Assembly (NCBI GenBank): GCA_963821755.1
Contig: CAWGEX010000002.1
Location: 864,717-928,716, forward strand
Origin: an uncultured Acidimicrobiaceae bacterium
Lineage (GTDB): Bacteria; Actinomycetota; Acidimicrobiia; Acidimicrobiales; RAAP-2
Reading direction: 5' to 3'
DNA: 64,000 nt
Position numbers and translations under genes: made by a program. Within the stretch, counting starts at the first letter, position 1. Each line of letters starts with the position of its first letter. The notes beneath the pieces are model-generated. The model saw only the letters and a program-made list of their open reading frames with translations. It had not been told where the DNA came from and ran no database searches. Of the stretch, positions 4,292 to 34,456 are shown piece after piece.

Positions 4292-5857
4292 ATGGCCCTC
4301 AACCCCCGTACACCGGTCGTCGTCGGCGTGGGCCAGGTGGTGGTGCGGCCCGATGCCCAGAGCGAGCCGGCCGACCGGCCCGAGCCCCTCGACCTGATGG
4401 TTCGGGCCCTGCGGGCCGCCGCCGAGGATTGTGACGGCGTGGCGGAGGGGGCCGGGGCGAGGGCCGGCGGCGCCCTGATCCGCCGGGCCCAGAGTGTCCG
4501 GGTCGTGGTGCCACTGGGGTGGCGCTCCATCAATCCCGCCCAGCTGGTGGCCGACCGGCTCGGGACCGAGCCGGGCCAATTGATGGTGTCGGCCATTGGT
4601 GGGAACACCCCGCAGGCGATGATGCACGACGCCTGCCTGGCCATTGGCCGGGGCGATCTTGACGTGGTCCTGGTGACGGGCGCCGAGGCCATGTACACCC
4701 GCACCCTGTCCCGCCGTAACCCGGCCAAGTCGTCCCTCCACTGGGTCAGCCAGCCCTCCGAGACAACGCCCCCACCCACCGCCTTCGGGATCGAGCGGCC
4801 CGGGGCCACCGACCTCGAGATGTCCCGCGGGGTGATCCTGCCCATCCACGCCTACCCGCTCTTCGAGAACGCCCTGCGGGGTGCCCGCGGATGGTCGCTG
4901 GCCGAACACGCGGCCCGCATCGGGGCACTCTGGGCGCGCTTCTCCGAGGTGGCCGCGGCCAATCCCAACGCCTGGATCCGCCACGCCCGAACGGCCGACG
5001 AGATCATCACCCCGTCGCCCGGCAACCGCATGATCTCGTTCCCCTACCCCAAGCTGGCCACGGCCAACATGCAGGTTGACCAGGGGGCGGGCTACATCGT
5101 GTGCTCGGTCGAGGCGGCGCGCTCGGCCGGCGTGGCCGAGGACCGCTGGGTCTTCCCCCTCTCGGGGGCCGACGCCAATGATCACTGGTTCATCTCGCAC
5201 CGGCCCGAGCTCCACCGCTCCCCCGCCATCCGCCTCGCCGGGCAGGCGGTGCTCGACATGGGCGGCGTCGGGATCGACGATGTCGGTCCGATCGACCTCT
5301 ACTCCTGCTTCCCCGCCGCAGTGCAGATGGCGGCGCACGAACTCGGGCTCCCGATCGACGACCCGGCCCGGCCCTTGACCTTGACCGGCGGGCTGACCTT
5401 CGGGGGCGGCCCCGGCAACAACTACACCTCCCACGGCATCGCCCAAGTGGTCGGGGCGCTGCGCGCCGATCCGGGCACGGGCGAGGGCGCAGGGCTGGGT
5501 ACGGTCGGGATGGCCACGGGCCTGGGCTGGTACGCCACCAAGCACTCGGTGGGGCTCTACGCCAGCCGCCCGCCCACGGGGGGATTTGCCTGGCGCAGCG
5601 TGCAAGACGAGGTGGATGCCCTGCCCCAGTGCCGGGTCGACTCCGATGCGACGGGCGCCGTACGGATCGAGACCTACACCGTCACCTTCGACCGCGACGG
5701 CAATCCGGAACGGGGCATCGTGGCCTGCCGCACGGAAGACGAGAGCCGAGCCTGGGGCAACGTCGATGACGTCGAGACGTTGCGTTCGCTCTGCGCCGAA
5801 GAGGGAATCGGGCGCACGGGCTGGTTGGCCGAGGGTGGGTTGCTCGCGCTCGACTGA
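4292..5857 (+). CDS. thiolase-like protein (acetyl-CoA acetyltransferase family) with OB-fold-like C-terminus
   Basis: In-frame part of ORF 3707..5857 starting at MALNPRTPVVVGVGQ (ATG 4292). Thiolase-like pattern throughout (IDLYSCFPAAVQMAAHELGL, LTLTGGLTFGGGPGNNYTSHGIA). About 521 aa. Confidence 0.7.
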   Translation: MALNPRTPVVVGVGQVVVRPDAQSEPADRPEPLDLMVRALRAAAEDCDGVAEGAGARAGGALIRRAQSVRVVVPLGWRSINPAQLVADRLGTEPGQLMVSAIGGNTPQAMMHDACLAIGRGDLDVVLVTGAEAMYTRTLSRRNPAKSSLHWVSQPSETTPPPTAFGIERPGATDLEMSRGVILPIHAYPLFENALRGARGWSLAEHAARIGALWARFSEVAAANPNAWIRHARTADEIITPSPGNRMISFPYPKLATANMQVDQGAGYIVCSVEAARSAGVAEDRWVFPLSGADANDHWFISHRPELHRSPAIRLAGQAVLDMGGVGIDDVGPIDLYSCFPAAVQMAAHELGLPIDDPARPLTLTGGLTFGGGPGNNYTSHGIAQVVGALRADPGTGEGAGLGTVGMATGLGWYATKHSVGLYASRPPTGGFAWRSVQDEVDALPQCRVDSDATGAVRIETYTVTFDRDGNPERGIVACRTEDESRAWGNVDDVETLRSLCAEEGIGRTGWLAEGGLLALD

Positions 5858-14712: not shown

Positions 14713-14787
14713 GCCCCCGTAGCTCAGCGGATAGAGCACCGGCCTCCGGAGCCGGTGGCGCAGGTTCGAGTCCTGCCGGGGGCGCCA
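14713..14787 (+). tRNA. tRNA-Arg (anticodon CCG), CCA encoded
   Basis: gcccccg ta gctc agcggata gagc a ccggc ctCCGga gccgg tggc gcagg ttcgagt cctgc cgggggc g cca. Full cloverleaf with a 7-bp acceptor stem and a GTTCGAGTC T-loop. Confidence 0.9.
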
Positions 14788-24203: not shown

Positions 24204-25188
24204 CTAGTAGATCGCGAAACGGATGACCGAGACGAACCCGAATACGAGCGAGTACACGGCAAAGGGGATCAGAGTTCGAGTCCGGAAGTAGCGAGACAAA
24301 AAGATGATGGCGAAGAGTGAGCTGGCGGCCGCCGCCAGGCTCCCTACTATCACCTGGGCCCGGATGCCGTTGCCCAAGGTCCCCAGGAGATCGGGGATCT
24401 TGAGCACACCAGCCGCGAGGATCACCGGCGTCGAGAGAAGGAAGGAAAACCGAAGGGCGTTCTCGTTGGTGAGCCCGCGGAATAGGCCACCCACCATCGC
24501 TACACCCTCGCGGCTGATCCCGGCCAGGAGCGCCAAGGCCTGAGCGGCTCCGATCACGGCGGCACTGACGTACCCGACGCGCGCCAAGGCGTGCTCACCG
24601 TCTTCGTCCAGGGGGACGATTCGCTCATCACGCCACGAGCGCGCGGTGACTCGAGCTGAGGAGGACCGATCGGCTGGTCGACGAAGCCTCGGGTTCGACG
24701 AGGACCGGCTCGGTCTTGGCCGCCAGGTGTCGGCGACGGAATACTTCGCCGGCGCCCAGGATCAACCCGTTCACCATGAGGAAGATCGCGGCCGCCAGCG
24801 GCTTGGCGAACAACACCCGAAACTGGTGCTCGAAGATGATGCCAAGCGCCCCGACGGGAATCGTGGCAATCACGATGAACCAGGCCAGTCGTTCCTGATC
24901 GTTGACCGCTCTGCGGTGGAGCAGCGAAGTAACGAAGCCCCGCACGAGACGCACCCACTCGCGGAAGTAGAAGCCGAGCAGCACGACGGCGGTCGCGAGA
25001 TGGAGCCCAACCACGAAGGCCAGGTACGGGCTCTCAGAAGAAGACTCCTGGCTCACGAGAGTGGCCCAGCTCCCGCCGATCCACGACGGCACCAGAACGG
25101 TGTGGCCGAGACTCGAGATCGGGAAGAGCTCCGTGAACCCCTGGAGAAGGCCAATCACGATGGCCTGCAAGAAAGTTATGTGGTGCAT
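24204..25188 (-). pseudogene. uppP: undecaprenyl-diphosphate phosphatase split into two ORFs by a frame change
   Basis: ORF 24628..25188 is the UppP N-half (LQGFTELFPISSLGHTVL). ORF 24204..24587 is the C-half (AAQALALLAGISREGVAMVGGL...RFSFLLSTPVILAAG) in the +1 frame. The C-half frame is open upstream across the stop of the N-half. Confidence 0.8.
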
Positions 25189-29412: not shown

Positions 29413-30879
29413 TCACGCCGTCCCCGTATGGCTCACCACTCGGAAGGTTCCGTCCTGCATGCGCCGCTGCAGGTACCGGCCGATCGTGTGGTGCTCGCTG
29501 ATCCAGGCGTCAAGCTCCGATGGCGCTGACGGCAGGTCCGAGAGCACCTGGCCGAAGGCCCGACGATGCACCGCGATGGCGTGGTGACACGGCTCCGACC
29601 CTTCGCCCTCACCCTGGGACCCCAGGAGGCAGATATCCCAAGGAGTTCCCGTCAGCCCCGCAATGGTTTCGCCGGCCGATCGGGCCTGATCGGCGGCCAA
29701 GGTGATCTCACCTTCGAAGCCGAGCACATGGGCGTAGCCGCGGTGCTCGGCCAGCTCGACCAGGTCCCGCCACGAGAGCACGCACCCCCGGTGGTGGTTC
29801 TCCGGCGTGGGCGTGACCGGCCGCTGTTCGACCCGCCAGGCGATGTCGAGCAGCCGCAATTCCTGCTGCCTCTCATCGAAGCGCTGGGCATCACCGTCGA
29901 AATTGAGGCAGACGATGGCGTCGAAGTAGGTGAACGGGCTGGCGAGCTGGCGCGCCGTCTGATTGAGGATGGCATCGGGATCCGCTTCGGGGATGGCGCC
30001 CAGCATCTCTCGGAAATGGGCCTCCATCGGCTCAATGTCCCAACCGATCTCGCCCCAGCCGATCCGATAATTGCGCACCCGGTCCTCCCAGGTGGGTCGG
30101 TACGGCGGGCCACTCGGCCGGGTGAAGCGGTGCACCCACCCCATCGCCGGATGGCAGAGCACGCGGCCCCCGCCCTGGCGAACTTTCTCGTGCAGGTATC
30201 CCTCCTCGCCCCCGAAACCCCGGAAGCGAGAGTTGATGCCCGGCCAGGCCTCGCGCCGGCAGGCGAACTGGCCCAGACCTTGCATGGGGATCTCGAACGG
30301 CCCAGCGGCGGCGTCGGCGAGGCGCGGGTCGGTGGCCCACTGCCCGTACATCCCATCGCTCCAGATGGGCTCGAAGTGTGTCCCCACCACGCTGGACAGG
30401 TCATCGGACAGCAGTGGCCCTTGGATCATGTCCCGGCTGGTCGGGTTCTCCTCGAAGTACTCCAGGAGGGCCCGGAGGGCCCCGGGCTTCAGGAGGACGT
30501 GCGAATCGAGGCAGCACACCACATCGGCATCGGCTTCTCGAAAGATCAGGTCGCGCGCCGCCGTACTGCGATACCCGCGGAACGGGACGTACCGCAGGCG
30601 GGGCACTCTCTCGTCGAGTCCTTTGAGGTCAGAGGCCGCCGCGCCCTCGGGGTGGTTGTCGAGGATGACGAACGACACCGCGTCGGCCACTTCGGGGTGG
30701 TACATGGCAATGGCCTGGACGGTGAACCACACGCCGTCGAAGTCGTCGAAGGTCGCCATACCGACGCACAGCCGGTGGTGCCCGACCGGAGGGGTCGCCT
30801 CGTGAATCGGGCGCGTGGACTCTTCTTCTTCCGAGAGCTTGCGCTCAAGATCAGCCAAGAACCGACGGGCCTCGGACAT
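29413..30879 (-). CDS. two-domain glycosyltransferase (N-terminal GT2-like; C-terminal GT25-like / unknown)
   Basis: 488 aa. N-domain VGMATFDDFDGVWFTVQAIAMYHP...SFVILDNHPEG...VVCCLDSHVLL (GT-A fold with DxH). C-domain FDAIVCLNFDGDAQRFDERQQEL...NHHRGCVLSWRDL resembles GT25-type domains. Confidence 0.7.
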   Translation of the reverse strand: MSEARRFLADLERKLSEEEESTRPIHEATPPVGHHRLCVGMATFDDFDGVWFTVQAIAMYHPEVADAVSFVILDNHPEGAAASDLKGLDERVPRLRYVPFRGYRSTAARDLIFREADADVVCCLDSHVLLKPGALRALLEYFEENPTSRDMIQGPLLSDDLSSVVGTHFEPIWSDGMYGQWATDPRLADAAAGPFEIPMQGLGQFACRREAWPGINSRFRGFGGEEGYLHEKVRQGGGRVLCHPAMGWVHRFTRPSGPPYRPTWEDRVRNYRIGWGEIGWDIEPMEAHFREMLGAIPEADPDAILNQTARQLASPFTYFDAIVCLNFDGDAQRFDERQQELRLLDIAWRVEQRPVTPTPENHHRGCVLSWRDLVELAEHRGYAHVLGFEGEITLAADQARSAGETIAGLTGTPWDICLLGSQGEGEGSEPCHHAIAVHRRAFGQVLSDLPSAPSELDAWISEHHTIGRYLQRRMQDGTFRVVSHTGTA

Positions 30880-30882
30880 CGG

Positions 30883-31212
30883 CTAGAAGAGACCGTTGCC
30901 GCTGCGGTAGCACGACACGCCCTCGGCATAGGCCGGGTCGTCCGACGGAATGAACCGGCCGTCACGGCACCAGACGCCGTTGAGCGGCAGCGGATCCCCG
31001 GTGATCTCGCCGTCTCGGGTCAGCTCGATGGTGGGGCGGAGGCGGTCCCACCAGACCCCGTACGGCAGGTGCTGGGCCTGGACGACGATCGGTCCCAGAT
31101 GATCGCGGGCGCTCGCGATCGCCGCGTAGGACGTGAACGGAAATGGCGCATCGCTGGGTTCGGTACCCACCACCGCGACGGCACTCGCGGTGTCGTGCAT
31201 CTCACGTATCAT
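30883..31212 (-). CDS. hypothetical protein (109 aa), first gene of the glycosyltransferase operon
   Basis: High third-position GC along the whole ORF. Its stop lies 3 nt before the GT start. I recognise no family. The start may be the second Met (31200). Confidence 0.55.
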   Translation of the reverse strand: MIREMHDTASAVAVVGTEPSDAPFPFTSYAAIASARDHLGPIVVQAQHLPYGVWWDRLRPTIELTRDGEITGDPLPLNGVWCRDGRFIPSDDPAYAEGVSCYRSGNGLF

Positions 31213-31220
31213 GCCAGTCG

Positions 31221-31484
31221 ATGACCAGTGTCCAGCGTCCGTCCCGGTGCGAGGGGCTTGAGGTCAACCAGGTGGCCGACGGGCTCGTCGTGTACCAGGC
31301 GGCTCCCGAGCAGGTGCACTACCTGAACAATACGTCTGCCGTCATCTTCGAGTTGTGCGAGGGTCACCGGTCCATTGAAGAGATCGCCGAACAGGTGCAG
31401 GACGTCTTCTCGCTCCCGGCACCCCCGGTCGACGAGGTCAAAGCGTGCGTGTCGGACCTGGTGGACAAGGCGGTCGTGCGATAG
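31221..31484 (+). CDS. PqqD-family protein (RiPP recognition element-like peptide chaperone)
   Basis: 87 aa from ATG 31221 in ORF 31143..31484: LEVNQVADGLVVYQAAPEQVHYLNNTSAVIFELCEGHRSIEEIAEQVQDVFSLPAPPVDEVKACVSDLVDKAVV. This is the canonical PqqD pattern (x-LN-x-t-a-x-i-x-x-l-x-d-G ... ei). Confidence 0.8.
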   Translation: MTSVQRPSRCEGLEVNQVADGLVVYQAAPEQVHYLNNTSAVIFELCEGHRSIEEIAEQVQDVFSLPAPPVDEVKACVSDLVDKAVVR

Positions 31485-32350
31485 CCGGCTTCCGCCTGCT
31501 CTGGCACCAGGTCGAGCTCAATACCGAGCAGGCCGATCCGGCGGTGGCAGAAGCCTTGCGCTATCTCGTCAACGGCGCCGAACATGACCGCCCCGCCTTG
31601 GCGGTCATGCACTACTCGGTCACCACGATGCCGGACGGTTCCCATGTCGTTTCCGAGGAAGGAGACGCACTGGATGCGGTTGACAGTGCCGACGGCGTGC
31701 TCGATCTCATCTATCGCCGGGTCCACCAGCGCGCCTTCGAGTTGGCTTCGCTGAGGGGCTGGGTGCGACTCCATGCCGCCGTCGTCGACGGGGCCGGGGG
31801 GCGGACACTCATCGTCGCCCCGTCGGGCACGGGAAAAACCACCTTGTCGTGCCGGCTGTTGCTCGACGGGGCGGCTGTCGCGGCCGACGAGAGCGTGATG
31901 ATCAGGGACGGGATCGCCCTGCCGGTGGCCCGGCGCTTCCACCTCAAGTCGGACATCGAAGCGGCGGTCCCCGACCTCCGCCCCTATGCGACCGGCCTTC
32001 CATCGCTCAACGGCGGATCGGTGAGGGCCTTCGATCCCAGTGAAGCGAATTTCCCCTGGTCCGTAAAAGAAGCCCAGGTGGCACACGTCGTGTTGCTTGA
32101 GCGGGGGGTGGAGCGATCCAGCTTGGCGCCCGGCAGCGCCGTTGCCGTGATGCCCGAGATCGTGGCTGAGTCGTTCCCCCATCAAGAACCTACGGGCGCC
32201 CTACTGGCCGAGATTGCCGCTGTGCTGTCACGGGCCCGATGCTGGCGCCTTCGGATGCATTCCGTGAATCGCGCTGCAACATTGGTAGCATCTCTGCCTG
32301 AGAGTCGACCGACGCAGTCGTCACGACCCAAAGGAGCACTGGATTCATGA
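31445..32350 (+). CDS. HPr kinase/phosphorylase-related P-loop kinase (HprK-related kinase type)
   Basis: 301 aa. LHAAVVDGAGGRTLIVAPSGTGKTTLSCRLLLDGAAVAADESVMI matches the HprK C-terminal-domain P-loop region. The start is uncertain (GTG 31445 overlaps the PqqD gene by 40 nt). The stop overlaps the next ATG (ATGA). Confidence 0.72.
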   Translation: MRVGPGGQGGRAIAGFRLLWHQVELNTEQADPAVAEALRYLVNGAEHDRPALAVMHYSVTTMPDGSHVVSEEGDALDAVDSADGVLDLIYRRVHQRAFELASLRGWVRLHAAVVDGAGGRTLIVAPSGTGKTTLSCRLLLDGAAVAADESVMIRDGIALPVARRFHLKSDIEAAVPDLRPYATGLPSLNGGSVRAFDPSEANFPWSVKEAQVAHVVLLERGVERSSLAPGSAVAVMPEIVAESFPHQEPTGALLAEIAAVLSRARCWRLRMHSVNRAATLVASLPESRPTQSSRPKGALDS

Positions 32351-32820
32351 GTGACCAGCACGAAACCGAGTCGACCGGCGATGACCGGCGAGCGTTTTTG
32401 AAGAAGATGGCCGCGGTGGGATTCGCGGTGCCGGTGGTCACGACCTTCGGTGTCGGCGGCGTCCAAGCGGCGTACGCCCAGACGGCCAACGCCTCGGGCA
32501 CCACGACGACCACGACCGCAGCCACGACCACCGTCGCTCCGACGACGACGACGACAACCACCAGCGACCACCGCGCCACCGACAACGACGACGACCACGA
32601 CGACGACTGCAAATCCCCACGTAGACCCCACCGGCGACCACGACGAACACTCGCCTCATTCCGTAGAGCGCTGGACTTCGCTGCGAGCCGGCGCACCGCT
32701 CACTCGACGGAGCAGTGTCCGGTGGCACCAGTGATTGCCCGAAGCCCGAGCGTCGGTGCGTACGCCGCGCTGAGTCGCTCGAACGTGCAGGGGCGATCTT
32801 CCATGGGTAGTTCGATATGA
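32347..32820 (+). CDS. small Tat-signal protein with Thr-rich, Asp/His-rich and Arg-rich low-complexity regions
   Basis: MSDQHETESTGDDRRAFLKKMAAVGFAVPVVTTFGVGGVQAAYA/QTANASGTTTTTTAATTTVAPTTTTTTTSDHRATDNDDDHDDDC.... Textbook RRxFLK twin-arginine motif plus h-region plus AxA. ATGA coupling at both ends. The reading frame of the 3' half is uncertain (see findings). Confidence 0.55.
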   Translation: MSDQHETESTGDDRRAFLKKMAAVGFAVPVVTTFGVGGVQAAYAQTANASGTTTTTTAATTTVAPTTTTTTTSDHRATDNDDDHDDDCKSPRRPHRRPRRTLASFRRALDFAASRRTAHSTEQCPVAPVIARSPSVGAYAALSRSNVQGRSSMGSSI

Positions 32821-33720
32821 CCGATCTCAGCGTCCTGTCTTCGCGCGCTTCGGTCGACCCCCGGGCGCGCCGCACGACCGCCCGAGGACCGATGGGACGG
32901 CGTTCTCCGCCTGGCTGCGGCCCATGACCTGCTGCCCGCCCTGTGGAGCGCGGGGCGGGAGCGGGGCTGGTGGACTGCCCTCCCGGCCGATGCGTTGGCC
33001 CAGGTGGCCGCTCACTTCGCCCCCGGATCGACCCACCCACGGCTGGTCCTGCAGCAGGCCTACGACGCCAACCGGCTCCGCGTGGCCGACCTGAGGGACC
33101 AGGGCGGGGTGATCCTCGAACATCTGGCCTCGGCCGGCATCGTCGCCGTCCCGCTGAAGGGATTGCACGCCCTGATGGCCGGCTGGTGGACCGATCCGGC
33201 GGATCGGGTCATGCGGGATCTCGACATTCTGGTGTCGAAGGATGACGCGGGACCAGCTTCGATATGTTTGGCCGAGCAGGGATACCTGCCATTCGCCACC
33301 GGACACACGGCCGCAGCCGACCACGAGCTGCCGGCCGTGGCGCTGCCCGGGCGCGCCGGTTCGGTCGAATTGCACACCGCGCTGGTGGTGAGTCGATGGA
33401 GTGCGGTGCTGCCCGGAGCCGAGGTCCTTGACCGCGGACCGTTGATGTCGTCCACCGATGCCGTGATCCACTCGATCGCTCACGCCCAACTCCACGATGA
33501 GGCCCACCTCCTGGCCCGGATCCCGCTGCGGGCGCTTCACGAGCTGATGATTCTGGCCGCAGGACCTCGAGGTGATGAGATCGACTGGGCACGGGTGCGC
33601 ACGGCGTTCCGTAGGGTCTCGGCCGAAGCCGCGTTGGACGCGCACCTGTCGCCAAGCACGTTCCCTCTTTGGTGCATCGGTCCCTCCTCCCGTTGGTCGG
33701 CTACGGCCTCTGGCGCATGA
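32817..33720 (+). CDS. nucleotidyltransferase-family protein (PF14907/NTP_transf_5-like) with an ambiguous, apparently frameshifted 5' end
   Basis: The listed ORF 32995..33720 extends upstream in the same frame to 32821 (…DRWDGVLRLAAAHDLLPALW..., VAVPLKGLHALMAGWWTDPADRVMRDLDILV..., ELHTALV) but has no start codon there. The only ATG (32817, ATGA-coupled to the upstream stop) is in the -1 frame. Confidence 0.65.
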
Positions 33721-34015
33721 CCGACTCTGCCGTACCTTCGTGAGCCACCCACCTCTGGCGTCGATCTACGAACGAACCGCTTTCCTTCCCCGTGGCCTCT
33801 CGACGGAGCGCATGCACGAGCTCCATGGCCCCGGGAGTCCGTGGATCTCGCGAGTACGCCATGCCGCCGCACGCCCTTCACCGCATGGCCAGTTCACGGC
33901 GCACTGACACCGGATCGGCCTCGGTCGACCCTCAGCATCGCCATCGTCGACCCTGGCGTCGCACCCGGCGCCGACGCCGGCGGGATCAGCGCCCGCCCGT
34001 CCCTAACATGGCGTG

Positions 34016-34456
34016 ATGCCCACCGACCACGCCGTCAGTTTCACCAGTGGAAGTCCCGAGACCGTGCTCGAACCCTTGAGCCCCGGATTGACTCAAGCCC
34101 TTGAGGCGGCGCTGGCCCTTCCGGCGGGCGAACGGCGGGCCGCCGTCTCGGCGGTGGCGGCGCAAGACCCGCGCTGCCTGCAGGCCTGGGCCACCCTGGC
34201 TGAGTTGGCCGACACCGACATCGATCGCTACGCCTTCGCTCGGGTGGGCTATCACCGAGGGCTGGACGCCCTTCGGGCCGCCGGGTGGCGCGGATCGGGC
34301 TACGTGCGCTGGCGCCATGAGTCCAATCGCGGCTTTCTGCGCTCCCTGCACGCCCTGGAACAGGCGGCCGAGGCCATCGGCGAAATGGACGAGGCCCAGC
34401 GTTGCGCCCTTTTTCTGCGCCAACTCGACCCGGAGTGGGGAGCTCGCGCGCTGTAG
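34016..34456 (+). CDS. DUF3151-family protein
   Basis: About 146 aa. CLQAWATLAELADTDIDRYAFARVGYHRGLDALRAAGWRGSGYVRWRHESNRGFLRSLHAL is typical of actinobacterial DUF3151. Confidence 0.75.
   Translation: MPTDHAVSFTSGSPETVLEPLSPGLTQALEAALALPAGERRAAVSAVAAQDPRCLQAWATLAELADTDIDRYAFARVGYHRGLDALRAAGWRGSGYVRWRHESNRGFLRSLHALEQAAEAIGEMDEAQRCALFLRQLDPEWGARAL

What the first reader, a model, noticed from the sequence alone, without database searches (positions are those of the whole stretch)
32347..32820. Tat-signal, (ACG)n-encoded Thr-rich ORF with ambiguous internal reading frame
The N-terminus is a near-consensus twin-arginine signal: DD-RRAFLK-K, then MAAVGFAVPVVTTFGVGGV, then AYA/Q. The mature part starts QTANASGTTTTTTAATTTVAPTTTTTTT, encoded by ACG/ACC runs. 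A second ACG run (about 32590-32610) is 31 nt from the first and therefore out of phase. In the called frame it reads DNDDDHDDDC, followed by an Arg-rich stretch that uses two AGA and several CGA codons, which are very rare for this GC content. In the +1 frame the same DNA reads ATTAPPTTTTTTTTTANPHVDPTGDHDEH. Third-position GC in the called frame recovers again after about 32670, and the ATGA couplings at both ends are in the called frame. So either the protein really switches from poly-Thr to an Asp/His metal-binding-like patch, or there are two compensating frame changes. Tat export of a protein that is almost entirely low-complexity is itself unusual.
Basis: seen in the sequence. Interest (0 to 1): 0.7.

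Follow-up and report, generated by a model that had tools for sequence, protein, structure and literature searches.

The report
Frameshifted Thr-rich leader-peptide gene
The 157-codon ORF is a frame-broken copy of a conserved gene of about 91 codons, which encodes a Tat-type leader plus a poly-threonine tail and sits in a peptide-modification gene cluster. Its Asp/His patch and Arg-rich second half are read-through artefacts, not a real protein.

Summary
Comparison with more than 90 related loci shows what they mean.

**The gene.** Relatives encode proteins of 86-97 aa: an acidic N-terminus, RRxFLKK, an almost invariant [AG]FAVPVV[ST][ST]F segment, A-Y-A/Q, Thr blocks, a 4-7 residue tail and a stop. 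The window has a private extra G at 32564 and a second +1 shift at 32606. The conserved reading therefore runs frame 0, then +1, then +2, and ends at LQIPT-TAG (32622-32624). DNDDDHDDDC is the Thr tract read out of frame. Positions 32625-32816 are the intergenic spacer.

**The shifts.** They add up rather than compensate. The downstream NTP_transf_5 gene carries three more private +1 insertions, and uppP, 8 kb away, is also split. Whether the cause is assembly error or recent decay cannot be settled without reads.

**The family.** It looks undescribed. It has a strongly conserved Tat-like leader and a hypervariable low-complexity core. It is almost always next to a PqqD-like RRE and a glycosyltransferase, often with an HprK-like kinase and NTP_transf_5. 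The best reading is a RiPP-like substrate that is glycosylated or phosphoglycosylated in the cytoplasm and then exported.

The parts
29413..30879 (-). GT2-family glycosyltransferase (488 aa), the cassette member in this clade
   Evidence: Pfam Glycos_transf_2. Syntenic at 91-96% aa identity in L001, L004 and L011-L013, and at 45-74% in L005, L006, L017, L024 and L032. No TM-like segment. No PDB sequence match.
30883..31212 (-). Conserved 109-aa protein of unknown function ('unk109'), co-conserved with the kinase-containing cassettes
   Evidence: 28 homologues, none annotated. AF2 model has pLDDT 82, but there is no significant PDB fold match. Syntenic in 17 or more loci.
31221..31484 (+). PqqD-like protein, a candidate RiPP recognition element
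   Evidence: Pfam PqqD E=3.7e-7, above the gathering score. TIGR04353 and TIGR03859 hits are below their cut-offs. Found adjacent to the peptide gene in most loci.
31445..32350 (+). HprK-related P-loop kinase (start codon uncertain); its stop overlaps the peptide ATG (ATGA)
   Evidence: TIGR04352 HprK_rel_A at 43 bits (cut-off 200) and ScmC at 24 bits. Weak PDB match to HPr kinase 1ko7. The P-loop SGTGKTT is visible in the translation. Syntenic.
32333..32336 (+). Shine-Dalgarno GGAG, 10 nt upstream of ATG 32347
   Evidence: Read directly from the sequence. Conserved in L001, L002, L004, L011 and L013.
32347..32562 (+). Intact 5' part of the peptide gene (residues 1-72): acidic N-terminus, RRAFLKK, conserved h-region, AYA/Q, NAS, and the first two Thr blocks
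   Evidence: 95-100% aa identity to P0001-P0003 and to L004, L011 and L013. GC3 is 0.85.
32564..32564 (+). Window-private 1-nt insertion (G) that shifts the conserved reading from frame 0 to frame +1
   Evidence: Absent from L001, L002, L003, L004 (both copies), L011 and L013.
32565..32605 (+). Third Thr block (TTAPPTTTTTTTT), readable only in frame +1
   Evidence: Frame translations. Orthologous to the (A/V)PPTTTTTTTTTT block of all close relatives.
32606..32606 (+). Second +1 shift (an extra A, or equivalently a 2-nt deletion) between the Thr block and the tail
   Evidence: Pairwise alignments to L002 and L004. Removing 32564 and 32606 gives a 91-aa ORF ending LQIPT*.
32607..32624 (+). True C-terminal tail LQIPT plus TAG stop (frame +2)
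   Evidence: Aligns base for base with the L004 A2 tail TTGCCAATCCCCACCTAG (LPIPT*). It matches the family tail pattern: LPIPR, LPIAT, LEIPA, LPVPLA.
32625..32666 (+). Relic of an older C-terminus (TPPATTTNTRLIP-TAG, in frame +2) just after the stop
   Evidence: Shared with L004. Corresponds to the functional end ...TTTTPLIP* of L002 A2.
32625..32816 (.). Intergenic spacer wrongly included in the called ORF; contains a conserved inverted repeat GATTGCCC (32733-32740) / GGGCGATC (32791-32798)
   Evidence: GC3 is equal in all frames. Homologous to the spacers of relatives, which carry indels that are not multiples of 3. The RNAalifold helix is kept in 6 of 6 sequences, but the covariation term is unfavourable.
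32817..33920 (+). NTP_transf_5 (PF14907) nucleotidyltransferase gene, frame-broken by private +1 insertions at 32844 (C), 33650 (C) and 33869 (G); stop lost by a deletion near 33921-33961
   Evidence: Pfam E=2e-22 on the frame-0 segment. Indel list. Deleting the three bases restores an ORF colinear with the L004 product. dN/dS of the repaired gene is 0.22.

Best explanation
**What is in the window (shown).** The DNA holds one copy of a conserved small gene of about 91 codons. Its Thr-coding (ACS)n tract carries two window-private +1 frame changes, at 32564 and 32606.
- The conserved reading is frame 0 (32347-32562), then frame +1 (32565-32605), then frame +2 (32607-32624, LQIPT-TAG).
- The mechanical ORF call stays in frame 0. 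It therefore reads the third Thr block as DNDDDHDDD and runs on through a relic tail and the whole intergenic spacer. It stops at a TGA that happens to overlap the start of the next gene.
- The Asp/His patch, the Arg-rich stretch with rare codons and the last 85 residues are therefore not a protein.

**What the intact gene is (inferred).** It is the substrate or precursor of the adjacent cassette.
- The N-terminal ~45 residues form a leader. It combines a twin-arginine motif (RRxFLKK), an unusually conserved hydrophobic segment ([AG]FAVPVV[ST][ST]F-x-[ML]-x-G) and an A-x-A/Q cleavage-type site.
- The C-terminal ~47 residues (62% Thr) are the core.
- The PqqD-like protein would bind the leader, as RiPP recognition elements do.
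- The cytoplasmic HprK-like kinase, the GT2 glycosyltransferase and the NTP_transf_5 enzyme would phosphorylate and glycosylate or phosphoglycosylate hydroxyl side chains of the core.
- The modified product would then be exported by Tat, which accepts substrates finished in the cytoplasm, and the leader removed at AYA/Q.

**Cause of the frame changes (unresolved).** Local assembly or consensus error is somewhat more likely than recent genuine inactivation.
For: **Frame assignment**
- 31 homologues are 86-123 aa. All cover at most 46% of the called ORF, and the close ones end 4-7 residues after the last Thr run.
- Nucleotide alignments with L001-L004, L011 and L013 (88-96% identity) place private insertions at 32564 and 32606. 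They align the window's CTGCAAATCCCCACGTAG with the L004 A2 tail and stop.
- Removing the two bases gives a 91-aa family-typical protein.
- GC3 is 0.85 in the 5' part against 0.63-0.69 in every frame of the spacer.

**Cassette**
- PqqD, the HprK-like kinase, NTP_transf_5 and GT2 were identified by Pfam and NCBIfam.
- The order unk109 / PqqD / kinase / peptide / NT is kept down to 37-40% aa identity in Acidimicrobiia MAGs.
- Across about 85 metagenome loci, the gene right after the peptide is a GT2-TPR enzyme, or a GT2_488 lies nearby, and PqqD is adjacent wherever the flanks allow.
- The GT2-TPR enzyme matches the protein or peptide glycosyltransferases GmaR (E=9e-21) and SunS/7msk (E~1e-11 to 1e-12).

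**Leader and core**
- In 84 distinct peptides the leader has P at 100%, F at 93-99%, A at 96% and V at 81-90%, and RR is present in 78 of 84.
- The cores are hypervariable: poly-T, TTTTSPNQ, GNQT or PNQT repeats, His-rich.
- Several loci carry 2-4 tandem peptide genes.

**Enzyme location and precedent**
- None of the enzymes has a TM-like segment.
- In lasso peptide clusters an HPr-kinase homologue phosphorylates the precursor, and an NTP_transf_5-type enzyme adds hexoses to that phosphate (PMC8498205).
Against: - Nothing here shows modification, RRE binding or Tat dependence. All of these are inferred from gene context.
- The window peptide itself gets no hit to TIGR01409 or PF10518, and only 17 of 30 relatives get weak hits.
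- Six distant members lack RR.
- The kinase and PqqD score far below the NCBIfam cut-offs of the HPr-rel-A system.
- The window's own glycosyltransferase is not the SunS/GmaR-like type and has no characterised relative.
- If the frameshifts are real, this genome makes no normal product.
- A conserved hydrophobic segment could instead be a membrane anchor rather than a leader.
Confidence: 0.7

Rival explanations
1. The frame changes are technical: a local assembly or consensus error. Possible causes are collapse of two tandem paralogues or a low-coverage, strain-variable segment. The real genome would then have intact peptide and nucleotidyltransferase genes.
For: - There are 10 window-private single-base insertions, all C or G and none a deletion, within 32561-33869. 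There are none in about 4.5 kb of aligned flanks and none inside flanking genes over about 10 kb.
- dN/dS of the repaired NT gene is 0.22, like the kinase at 0.25, so there is no long neutral phase.
- The closest relatives L001, L002 and L004 have two near-identical tandem peptide genes. The window has one, with an A1-type 5' end and an A2-type 3' end, as a collapsed repeat would.
- An unrelated gene, uppP/BacA, is also split between frames at about 24590-24680.
- Other long-contig MAG versions show the same kind of damage: L006/P0013 has frameshifts in the peptide, kinase and GT2, and P0062 has lost its stop.
Against: - The errors cluster in 1.3 kb rather than being spread evenly.
- Most insertions are not in homopolymers.
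- Single-copy arrangements exist in independent contigs (L011, L013), so one copy need not be a collapse.
- Frameshifted alleles also occur in short metagenome contigs (L044, L071).
Confidence: 0.55
2. The frame changes are biological. The peptide gene and the nucleotidyltransferase gene were recently inactivated in this lineage. One of two tandem peptide genes was lost by recombination, while the PqqD, kinase and GT2 genes are still intact.
For: - All five frame-disrupting changes plus loss of the NT stop fall in two functionally linked adjacent genes.
- Window-private substitutions are 3.3 per 100 nt there, against 2.0 per 100 in the flanks.
- Frameshifted alleles of the family recur in independent assemblies.
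Against: - The ratio of indels to excess substitutions is very high.
- The spectrum is only +1 insertions of C or G, unlike the usual deletion bias of bacterial pseudogenes (my own knowledge).
- dN/dS is not raised.
- uppP is also broken elsewhere in the window.
Confidence: 0.4
3. The ORF is correct as called: a real 157-aa Tat substrate whose mature part switches from poly-Thr to an Asp/His metal-binding patch and an Arg-rich C-terminal domain.
For: - The frame is open for 157 codons.
- There are ATGA overlaps at both ends.
- A few database proteins also show D/H-rich stretches after the leader: P0013, P0032, P0038 and P0051.
Against: - No homologue covers residues 73-157.
- The D/H patch is the conserved Thr tract read out of frame.
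- P0013, L044 and L071 are themselves frameshifted copies whose other frame gives the family-typical Thr run, tail and stop.
- The tail has rare codons, and GC3 equals genomic GC in all frames.
- The region aligns with a non-coding spacer.
Confidence: 0.03
4. The shift is functional: programmed +1 ribosomal frameshifting, or a phase-variable contingency tract that switches the product between a Thr-rich and a D/H-rich form.
For: - (ACS)n is open in all three frames.
- Frameshifted alleles recur in about 4% of assembled family members.
Against: - Two separate +1 events would be needed.
- There is no slippery or homopolymeric site, and triplet repeats slip in steps of 3 (my own knowledge).
- The shift positions differ between loci.
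- The neighbouring NT gene is hit by the same kind of insertion.
- No RNA family or convincing structure is present.
Confidence: 0.03
5. The intact protein is not a RiPP-like precursor. It is an ordinary secreted or membrane-anchored mucin-like surface glycoprotein, and the conserved hydrophobic segment is a Tat signal or signal-anchor only. The PqqD-like protein would have another role.
For: - There is a twin-arginine motif and an AxA site.
- Thr/Pro-rich linkers are common O-glycosylation targets in Actinobacteria (my own knowledge).
- The best PDB match of the GT2-TPR enzyme is GmaR, which glycosylates a full-length protein, flagellin.
Against: - Ordinary signal peptides are not conserved in sequence to this degree (P 100%, F 93-99% over 84 distinct peptides). 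Here the leader is much more conserved than the 'mature' part, which is the RiPP pattern.
- The gene is consistently adjacent to a PqqD-family protein, and tandem multi-copy peptide genes occur.
Confidence: 0.25

Closest known systems
Twin-arginine (Tat) signal peptides (TIGR01409 / PF10518)
   Same: - RRxFLK motif.
- Moderately hydrophobic, Gly/Thr-containing h-region of about 24 residues.
- A-x-A cleavage-type site.
- All partner enzymes are predicted cytoplasmic, which fits export after modification.
   Different: - The h-region is almost invariant across the family ([AG]FAVPVV[ST][ST]F), unlike normal signal peptides.
- The residue before RR is Asp, not Ser or Thr, and the n-region is strongly acidic (net charge -5).
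- The window peptide gets no HMM hit.
- A few distant members have KR or no RR.
Lasso-peptide tailoring by an HPr-kinase homologue and a nucleotidyltransferase (paeninodin; pseudomycoidin PsmK/PsmN; PMC8498205)
   Same: - The same trio of protein families sits next to a small peptide gene: PqqD-like RRE, HprK-like kinase and an NTP_transf_5-type enzyme.
- The chemistry precedent is phosphorylation of a hydroxyl side chain followed by hexose transfer to the phosphate.
   Different: - There is no lasso cyclase (Asn-synthetase-like) and no B2 peptidase in the window's +/-10 kb or in relatives.
- The precursor is about 90 aa with a Tat-like leader and a poly-Thr core, not a ~40-aa lasso precursor with a C-terminal Ser.
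Glycocins (SunA/SunS, ThuS and similar)
   Same: - Most family members are followed directly by a GT2 enzyme with a TPR-like C-terminal domain that is homologous to SunS/ThuS.
- The substrate is a small ribosomal peptide with a leader.
   Different: - The window clade uses a different 488-aa GT2.
- The window peptide has no Cys pairs or helical hairpin.
- A PqqD RRE is present, which glycocins lack.
- The leader is Tat-like rather than a double-glycine leader.
HPr-rel-A system and SynChlorMet cassette (TIGR04352/TIGR04353; ScmC/ScmD)
   Same: These are the best NCBIfam matches of the kinase and the PqqD-like protein. They are paired in the same way next to a presumed peptide substrate.
   Different: - Scores are far below the curated cut-offs (43 against 200 bits; 24 against 35 bits).
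- There are no radical-SAM partners.
- The peptide family is different.
Mucin-like or Pro/Thr-rich O-glycosylated regions of secreted proteins
   Same: The core is 62% Thr with Pro/Ala breaks, and it gets weak compositional Pfam hits to Mucin, New_glue and MGC-24.
   Different: Here the Thr-rich stretch is the whole mature product, not a linker. It comes with its own dedicated cytoplasmic enzyme set.

Membership tests
Tat signal peptide | Twin-arginine motif (S/T)-R-R-x-F-L-K | tested here: met
   D-R-R-A-F-L-K at residues 13-19. RR is present in 78 of 84 distinct family members. The -1 residue is D, not S or T.
Tat signal peptide | Moderately hydrophobic h-region followed by an A-x-A signal-peptidase site | tested here: met
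   The h-region is 24 aa with mean KD 1.42, followed by AYA/Q. A-[YF]-A-Q is the majority pattern in the family.
Tat signal peptide | Recognition by dedicated models or predictors (TIGR01409, PF10518, TatP, SignalP) | tested here: inconclusive
   TIGR01409 gives weak hits in 17 of 30 members (best E=0.014), and none for the window peptide. There is no PF10518 hit. TatP and SignalP were not available.
Tat signal peptide | Tat-dependent export | not testable with these tools
   Needs a reporter fusion or a tat mutant.
RRE-dependent RiPP precursor | Small gene next to a PqqD-like RRE and modifying enzymes | tested here: met
   Pfam PqqD is above the gathering score. Adjacency is conserved across about 90 loci.
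RRE-dependent RiPP precursor | Conserved leader, hypervariable core, often several tandem precursor genes | tested here: met
   Leader positions are 90-100% conserved, while the cores range from poly-T to GNQT repeats to His-rich. There are 2-4 tandem copies in L001, L002, L004, L021, L084 and L089.
RRE-dependent RiPP precursor | Leader bound by the RRE; core post-translationally modified; leader removed | not testable with these tools
   Needs binding assays and mass spectrometry.
Lasso peptide cluster | Lasso cyclase (Asn-synthetase-like C) and B2 transglutaminase-like peptidase | tested here: not met
   Neither was found among Pfam hits of neighbours in the window, nor in the precomputed Pfam of relatives' loci.
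Glycocin cluster | SunS-type GT2-TPR glycosyltransferase adjacent to the peptide | tested here: not met
   This is met in most distant family members but not in the window clade. There the only GT is a 488-aa GT2 with no PDB match.
Glycocin cluster | Cys-stapled helical hairpin core | tested here: not met
   The repaired window peptide has no Cys.
HPr-rel-A system (TIGR04352 + TIGR04353) | Kinase and PqqD partner score above the curated equivalog cut-offs | tested here: not met
   The kinase scores 43.3 bits against a cut-off of 200. PqqD scores 23.9 bits against a cut-off of 35.

The most novel reading that the evidence does not exclude
The intact family is an undescribed class of ribosomal peptide products. 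It has a Tat-type leader that doubles as the recognition sequence for a PqqD-like RRE. It has a hypervariable low-complexity core: poly-Thr here, and N-Q-(T/S) sequon-like repeats or His-rich cores elsewhere. That core would be densely glycosylated or phosphoglycosylated in the cytoplasm by a GT2, an HprK-like kinase and an NTP_transf_5 enzyme. The product would then leave the cell through Tat as a small bacterial 'mucin' or proteophosphoglycan. The family is widespread in uncultured soil and peat Acidimicrobiia.
Probability: 0.35. Interest if true: 0.7.

Novelty: new variant of a known kind. Interest (0 to 1): 0.45.

Why it matters
**For annotation.** (ACS)n Thr tracts are open in all three frames. 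A single indel therefore produces a long, plausible-looking chimeric ORF, and its 'metal-binding' D/H patch is a predictable artefact. The same thing has happened to several database entries of this family: P0013, P0038, P0062, L044 and L071.

**For biology.** The underlying gene family and its cassette are uncharacterised. No Pfam or NCBIfam model exists, and I found no paper in the held library. The cassette joins two things not usually seen together: an RRE-guided peptide-modification system and a Tat-type leader. If confirmed, it would give:
- a testable case of Tat exporting a heavily pre-modified peptide;
- a new glyco- or phosphoglyco-peptide chemistry in a poorly cultured actinobacterial class.

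Tried and rejected
- **Window-wide frameshift detectors.** A GC-position HMM and a codon-usage frame scanner were meant to measure assembly quality. Both were too insensitive; they missed even the known breaks. I dropped them.
- **unk109.** The homologue search, AF2 model (pLDDT 82) and PDB fold search gave no significant match. PDB sequence searches for unk109, NT and GT2_488 found nothing, and the kinase matched only weakly.
- **RNA and signals.** Rfam over the whole window found only a tRNA at 14713-14784. The promoter and terminator scan of 30800-34100 found nothing above shuffles. RNAalifold on the peptide-NT spacer gave a conserved long-range helix but an unfavourable covariation term, so I make no RNA claim.
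- **Tat HMMs.** Inconclusive.
- **Literature.** Searches on HprK-related kinase, HPr-rel-A, PF14907, Thr-rich RiPP precursors and RRE plus SunS found nothing that describes this system.
- **Readings rejected.** I rejected a real D/H metal-binding patch, compensating frameshifts, programmed frameshifting or phase variation, and an antisense ORF. The minus-strand ORFs over the tract are poly-Val mirror images typical of high-GC DNA.
- **Not spent.** I did not use the last whole-database protein search on the C-terminal 85 aa alone, because the nucleotide alignments already settle that point.
Full report
**1. Observation**

The window is 67% GC.
- an acidic N-terminus;
- DD-RRAFLKK;
- a 24-residue Gly/Thr-containing hydrophobic stretch ending AYA/Q;
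- QTANASG and Thr runs encoded by ACG/ACC.

A second run is out of phase by +1. Frame 0 reads it as DNDDDHDDDC, and frame +1 reads it as TTAPPTTTTTTTTT. The frame-0 tail has 2 AGA and 5 CGA codons.

GC3 is 0.85 over 32347-32562. It is 0.63-0.69 in all three frames over 32625-32816, which is the genomic GC. The 'recovery' of GC3 is therefore not a coding signal.

**2. Which frame is conserved**

A search of 5.8 billion proteins gave 31 homologues, all 86-123 aa. All match only the first 46% or less of the query. They share one plan:
- the leader;
- QTANASG or ATANGSG;
- Thr blocks separated by AA, VAP or (A/V)PP;
- a 4-7 residue tail such as LPVPLA, PLIP, LPIPR, LEIPA or EGIQ;
- a stop.

I fetched the DNA of close relatives. 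These are L001 and L002, L003 and L004 from Acidimicrobiales/Acidimicrobiaceae MAGs, and L011-L014 from peat and soil metagenomes. They are 88-96% identical to the window.

Nucleotide alignments show the following.
- There is a window-private extra G at 32564.
- There is a second +1 change at 32606.
- The window's CTGCAAATCCCCACGTAG (32607-32624, LQIPT-stop, frame +2) aligns base for base with the tail and stop of the L004 gene (TTGCCAATCCCCACCTAG, LPIPT-stop).
- Deleting the two bases yields a 91-aa protein of the family type.
- Directly after the stop lies a relic of an older C-terminus, TPPATTTNTRLIP-TAG. L004 shares it, and it corresponds to the working end of L002's second gene.
- The remaining 150 nt of the called ORF align with the intergenic spacers of relatives. 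Those spacers differ from each other by indels that are not multiples of 3.

So there are two +1 shifts that add up, not two that compensate. The Asp/His patch and everything after it are not a conserved protein. The 3' ATGA is accidental. The next gene starts with ATG or GTG at that spot in all relatives, whose peptide genes end far upstream.

**3. Why the frame is broken**

Evidence that the damage is local and linked:
- The downstream NTP_transf_5 gene has three further private +1 insertions (32844, 33650, 33869) and has lost its stop. Removing the three bases restores a product colinear with that of L004.
- In a five-sequence alignment, the window has 10 private single-base insertions between 32561 and 33869. 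All are C or G. There are none in 4.5 kb of flanks.
- Private substitutions are 3.3 per 100 nt there, against 2.0 per 100 in the flanks.
- No flanking gene over about 10 kb is disrupted.

Evidence that points to a technical cause:
- dN/dS of the repaired NT gene is 0.22, like its neighbours. Any inactivation is therefore recent, or not real.
- L001, L002 and L004 carry two tandem peptide genes. The window has one, with the 5' context of the first and the 3' context of the second. This fits recombination or a collapsed repeat. However, single-copy contigs also exist (L011, L013).
- An unrelated gene, uppP/BacA, is also split between two frames at about 24.6 kb.
- Other assemblies show the same kind of damage in this gene: L006/P0013, P0062, L044 and L071.

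I weigh a technical cause at about 0.55 and recent genuine decay at about 0.40. Only reads can decide.

**4. What the intact gene is**

*Context in the window:*

| Coordinates | Strand | Gene |
|---|---|---|
| 29413-30879 | - | GT2 glycosyltransferase |
| 30883-31212 | - | conserved unknown protein, 109 aa |
| 31221-31484 | + | PqqD-like protein |
| 31445-32350 | + | HprK-related kinase; stop overlaps the peptide ATG |
| 32347-32624 | + | the peptide |
| 32817 onwards | + | NTP_transf_5 |

The order is kept down to 37-40% aa identity in Microthrixaceae and other Acidimicrobiia MAGs.

*Context across the family.* In about 85 metagenome loci:
- the peptide gene is followed within 200-500 nt by a GT2-TPR enzyme, or has the 488-aa GT2 nearby;
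- it is preceded by PqqD, often with the kinase;
- NTP_transf_5 is frequent.

The GT2-TPR enzyme is homologous to the protein or peptide glycosyltransferases GmaR and SunS/ThuS. None of the enzymes has a TM-like segment.

*The peptide family.* It comprises 84 distinct sequences. The leader is strikingly conserved: RR in 78 of 84, [AG]FAVPVV[ST][ST]F with P at 100% and F at 93-99%, and A-[YF]-A-Q. The cores are hypervariable and low-complexity: poly-Thr, TTTTSPNQ, GNQT or PNQT repeats, His-rich. Several loci have 2-4 tandem copies.

A conserved leader, a variable core, an RRE and tailoring enzymes together form the RiPP pattern. The kinase-plus-nucleotidyltransferase pair has a direct precedent in phosphorylated and phosphoglycosylated lasso peptides (PMC8498205). 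Here, though, there is no lasso cyclase or peptidase.

My best reading is that the leader is bound by the PqqD protein. The Thr-rich core is then phosphorylated and glycosylated or phosphoglycosylated in the cytoplasm. The finished product is exported by Tat and cleaved at AYA/Q. The gene context is shown; the chemistry, binding and export are inferred.

**5. Comparison and novelty**

- The leader meets the sequence definition of a Tat signal. It is not recognised by TIGR01409 or PF10518 in the window copy, and it is far more conserved than signal peptides normally are.
- The kinase and PqqD fall far below the cut-offs of the HPr-rel-A system.
- The system is not a lasso cluster and not a glycocin cluster (see the membership table).
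- No Pfam or NCBIfam model covers the peptide. All database copies are 'hypothetical protein'.
- Seven literature searches found no description.

I file it as a new variant of a known kind: an RRE-guided peptide-modification cassette with a new, Tat-leader precursor family.

**6. Verdict**

- The flagged frame ambiguity is real. It is explained as a frame-broken gene whose called second half is an artefact, and that part is ordinary.
- The underlying family is the interesting part, but nothing about its function is demonstrated.
- Interest is 0.45.

Noticed in passing
window 32817-33961: The NTP_transf_5 gene downstream of the peptide is frame-broken by three window-private +1 insertions (32844 C, 33650 C, 33869 G) and has lost its stop through a deletion. 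Removing the three bases restores a full-length ORF.
   Followed up: yes
window 24204-25188 (minus strand): The uppP/BacA gene is split into two ORFs in different frames. Pfam BacA profile positions 1-136 fall in 24628-25188, and positions 144-257 fall in 24204-24587. This frame break has nothing to do with the cassette, so it bears on assembly quality.
   Followed up: partly
L001 6001-6569; L002 1461-2147; L004 4125-4812 versus window 32347-32624: The closest relatives carry two near-identical tandem peptide genes. The window, and also L011 and L013, have one. The window copy has the 5' context of gene 1 and the tail and downstream region of gene 2.
   Followed up: partly
window 32625-32666; L004 about 4813-4855: A relic C-terminus (TPPATTTNTRLIP-TAG) sits in frame right after the working stop. 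It is the functional end in L002. The current LQIPT/LPIPT tail and stop therefore look like a roughly 45-nt insertion into an older gene end.
   Followed up: partly
L006 8001-8339; L044 665-; L071 2833-; P0038; P0062: Other database copies of this family are also frameshifted in the Thr tract, or have lost the stop. They are called as D/H/R-rich or very long proteins. About 4% of the assembled copies are affected.
   Followed up: partly
L008 7977-8654; L070; L090; P0027; P0048: A subfamily ends in ..SDVN(R/I)KENIV(P/S)V(A/V)W. In L008 it is followed by an ORF with a Peptidase_S74 (endosialidase chaperone) hit. These may be one gene: a peptide fused to a self-cleaving intramolecular chaperone domain.
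   Followed up: partly
family cores, for example L039, L040, L053, L060, L061, L082, P0041, P0045, P0052: Many cores are repeats of G/P-N-Q-(T/S). 57 of 84 peptides have an N-x-S/T motif within 22 residues after the hydrophobic segment (NAS in the window). This looks like a sequon and hints at Asn-linked as well as Thr-linked modification.
   Followed up: no
window 32733-32740 and 32791-32798: A conserved inverted repeat, GATTGCCC / GGGCGATC, lies in the peptide-NT spacer. It is kept in all six aligned relatives, but without convincing covariation.
   Followed up: partly
window 30883-31212 (minus strand): A conserved 109-aa protein has many invariant aromatic residues (a PYGVWWDRLRP motif) and co-occurs with the kinase-type cassettes. 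The AF2 model is confident, but it has no PDB fold match.
   Followed up: yes
L002 2540-2630 and 3409-4383: L002 has a run of N (a scaffold gap) inside its NT gene. It also has an extra TauD-family dioxygenase gene between NT and DUF3151 that the window lacks.
   Followed up: no
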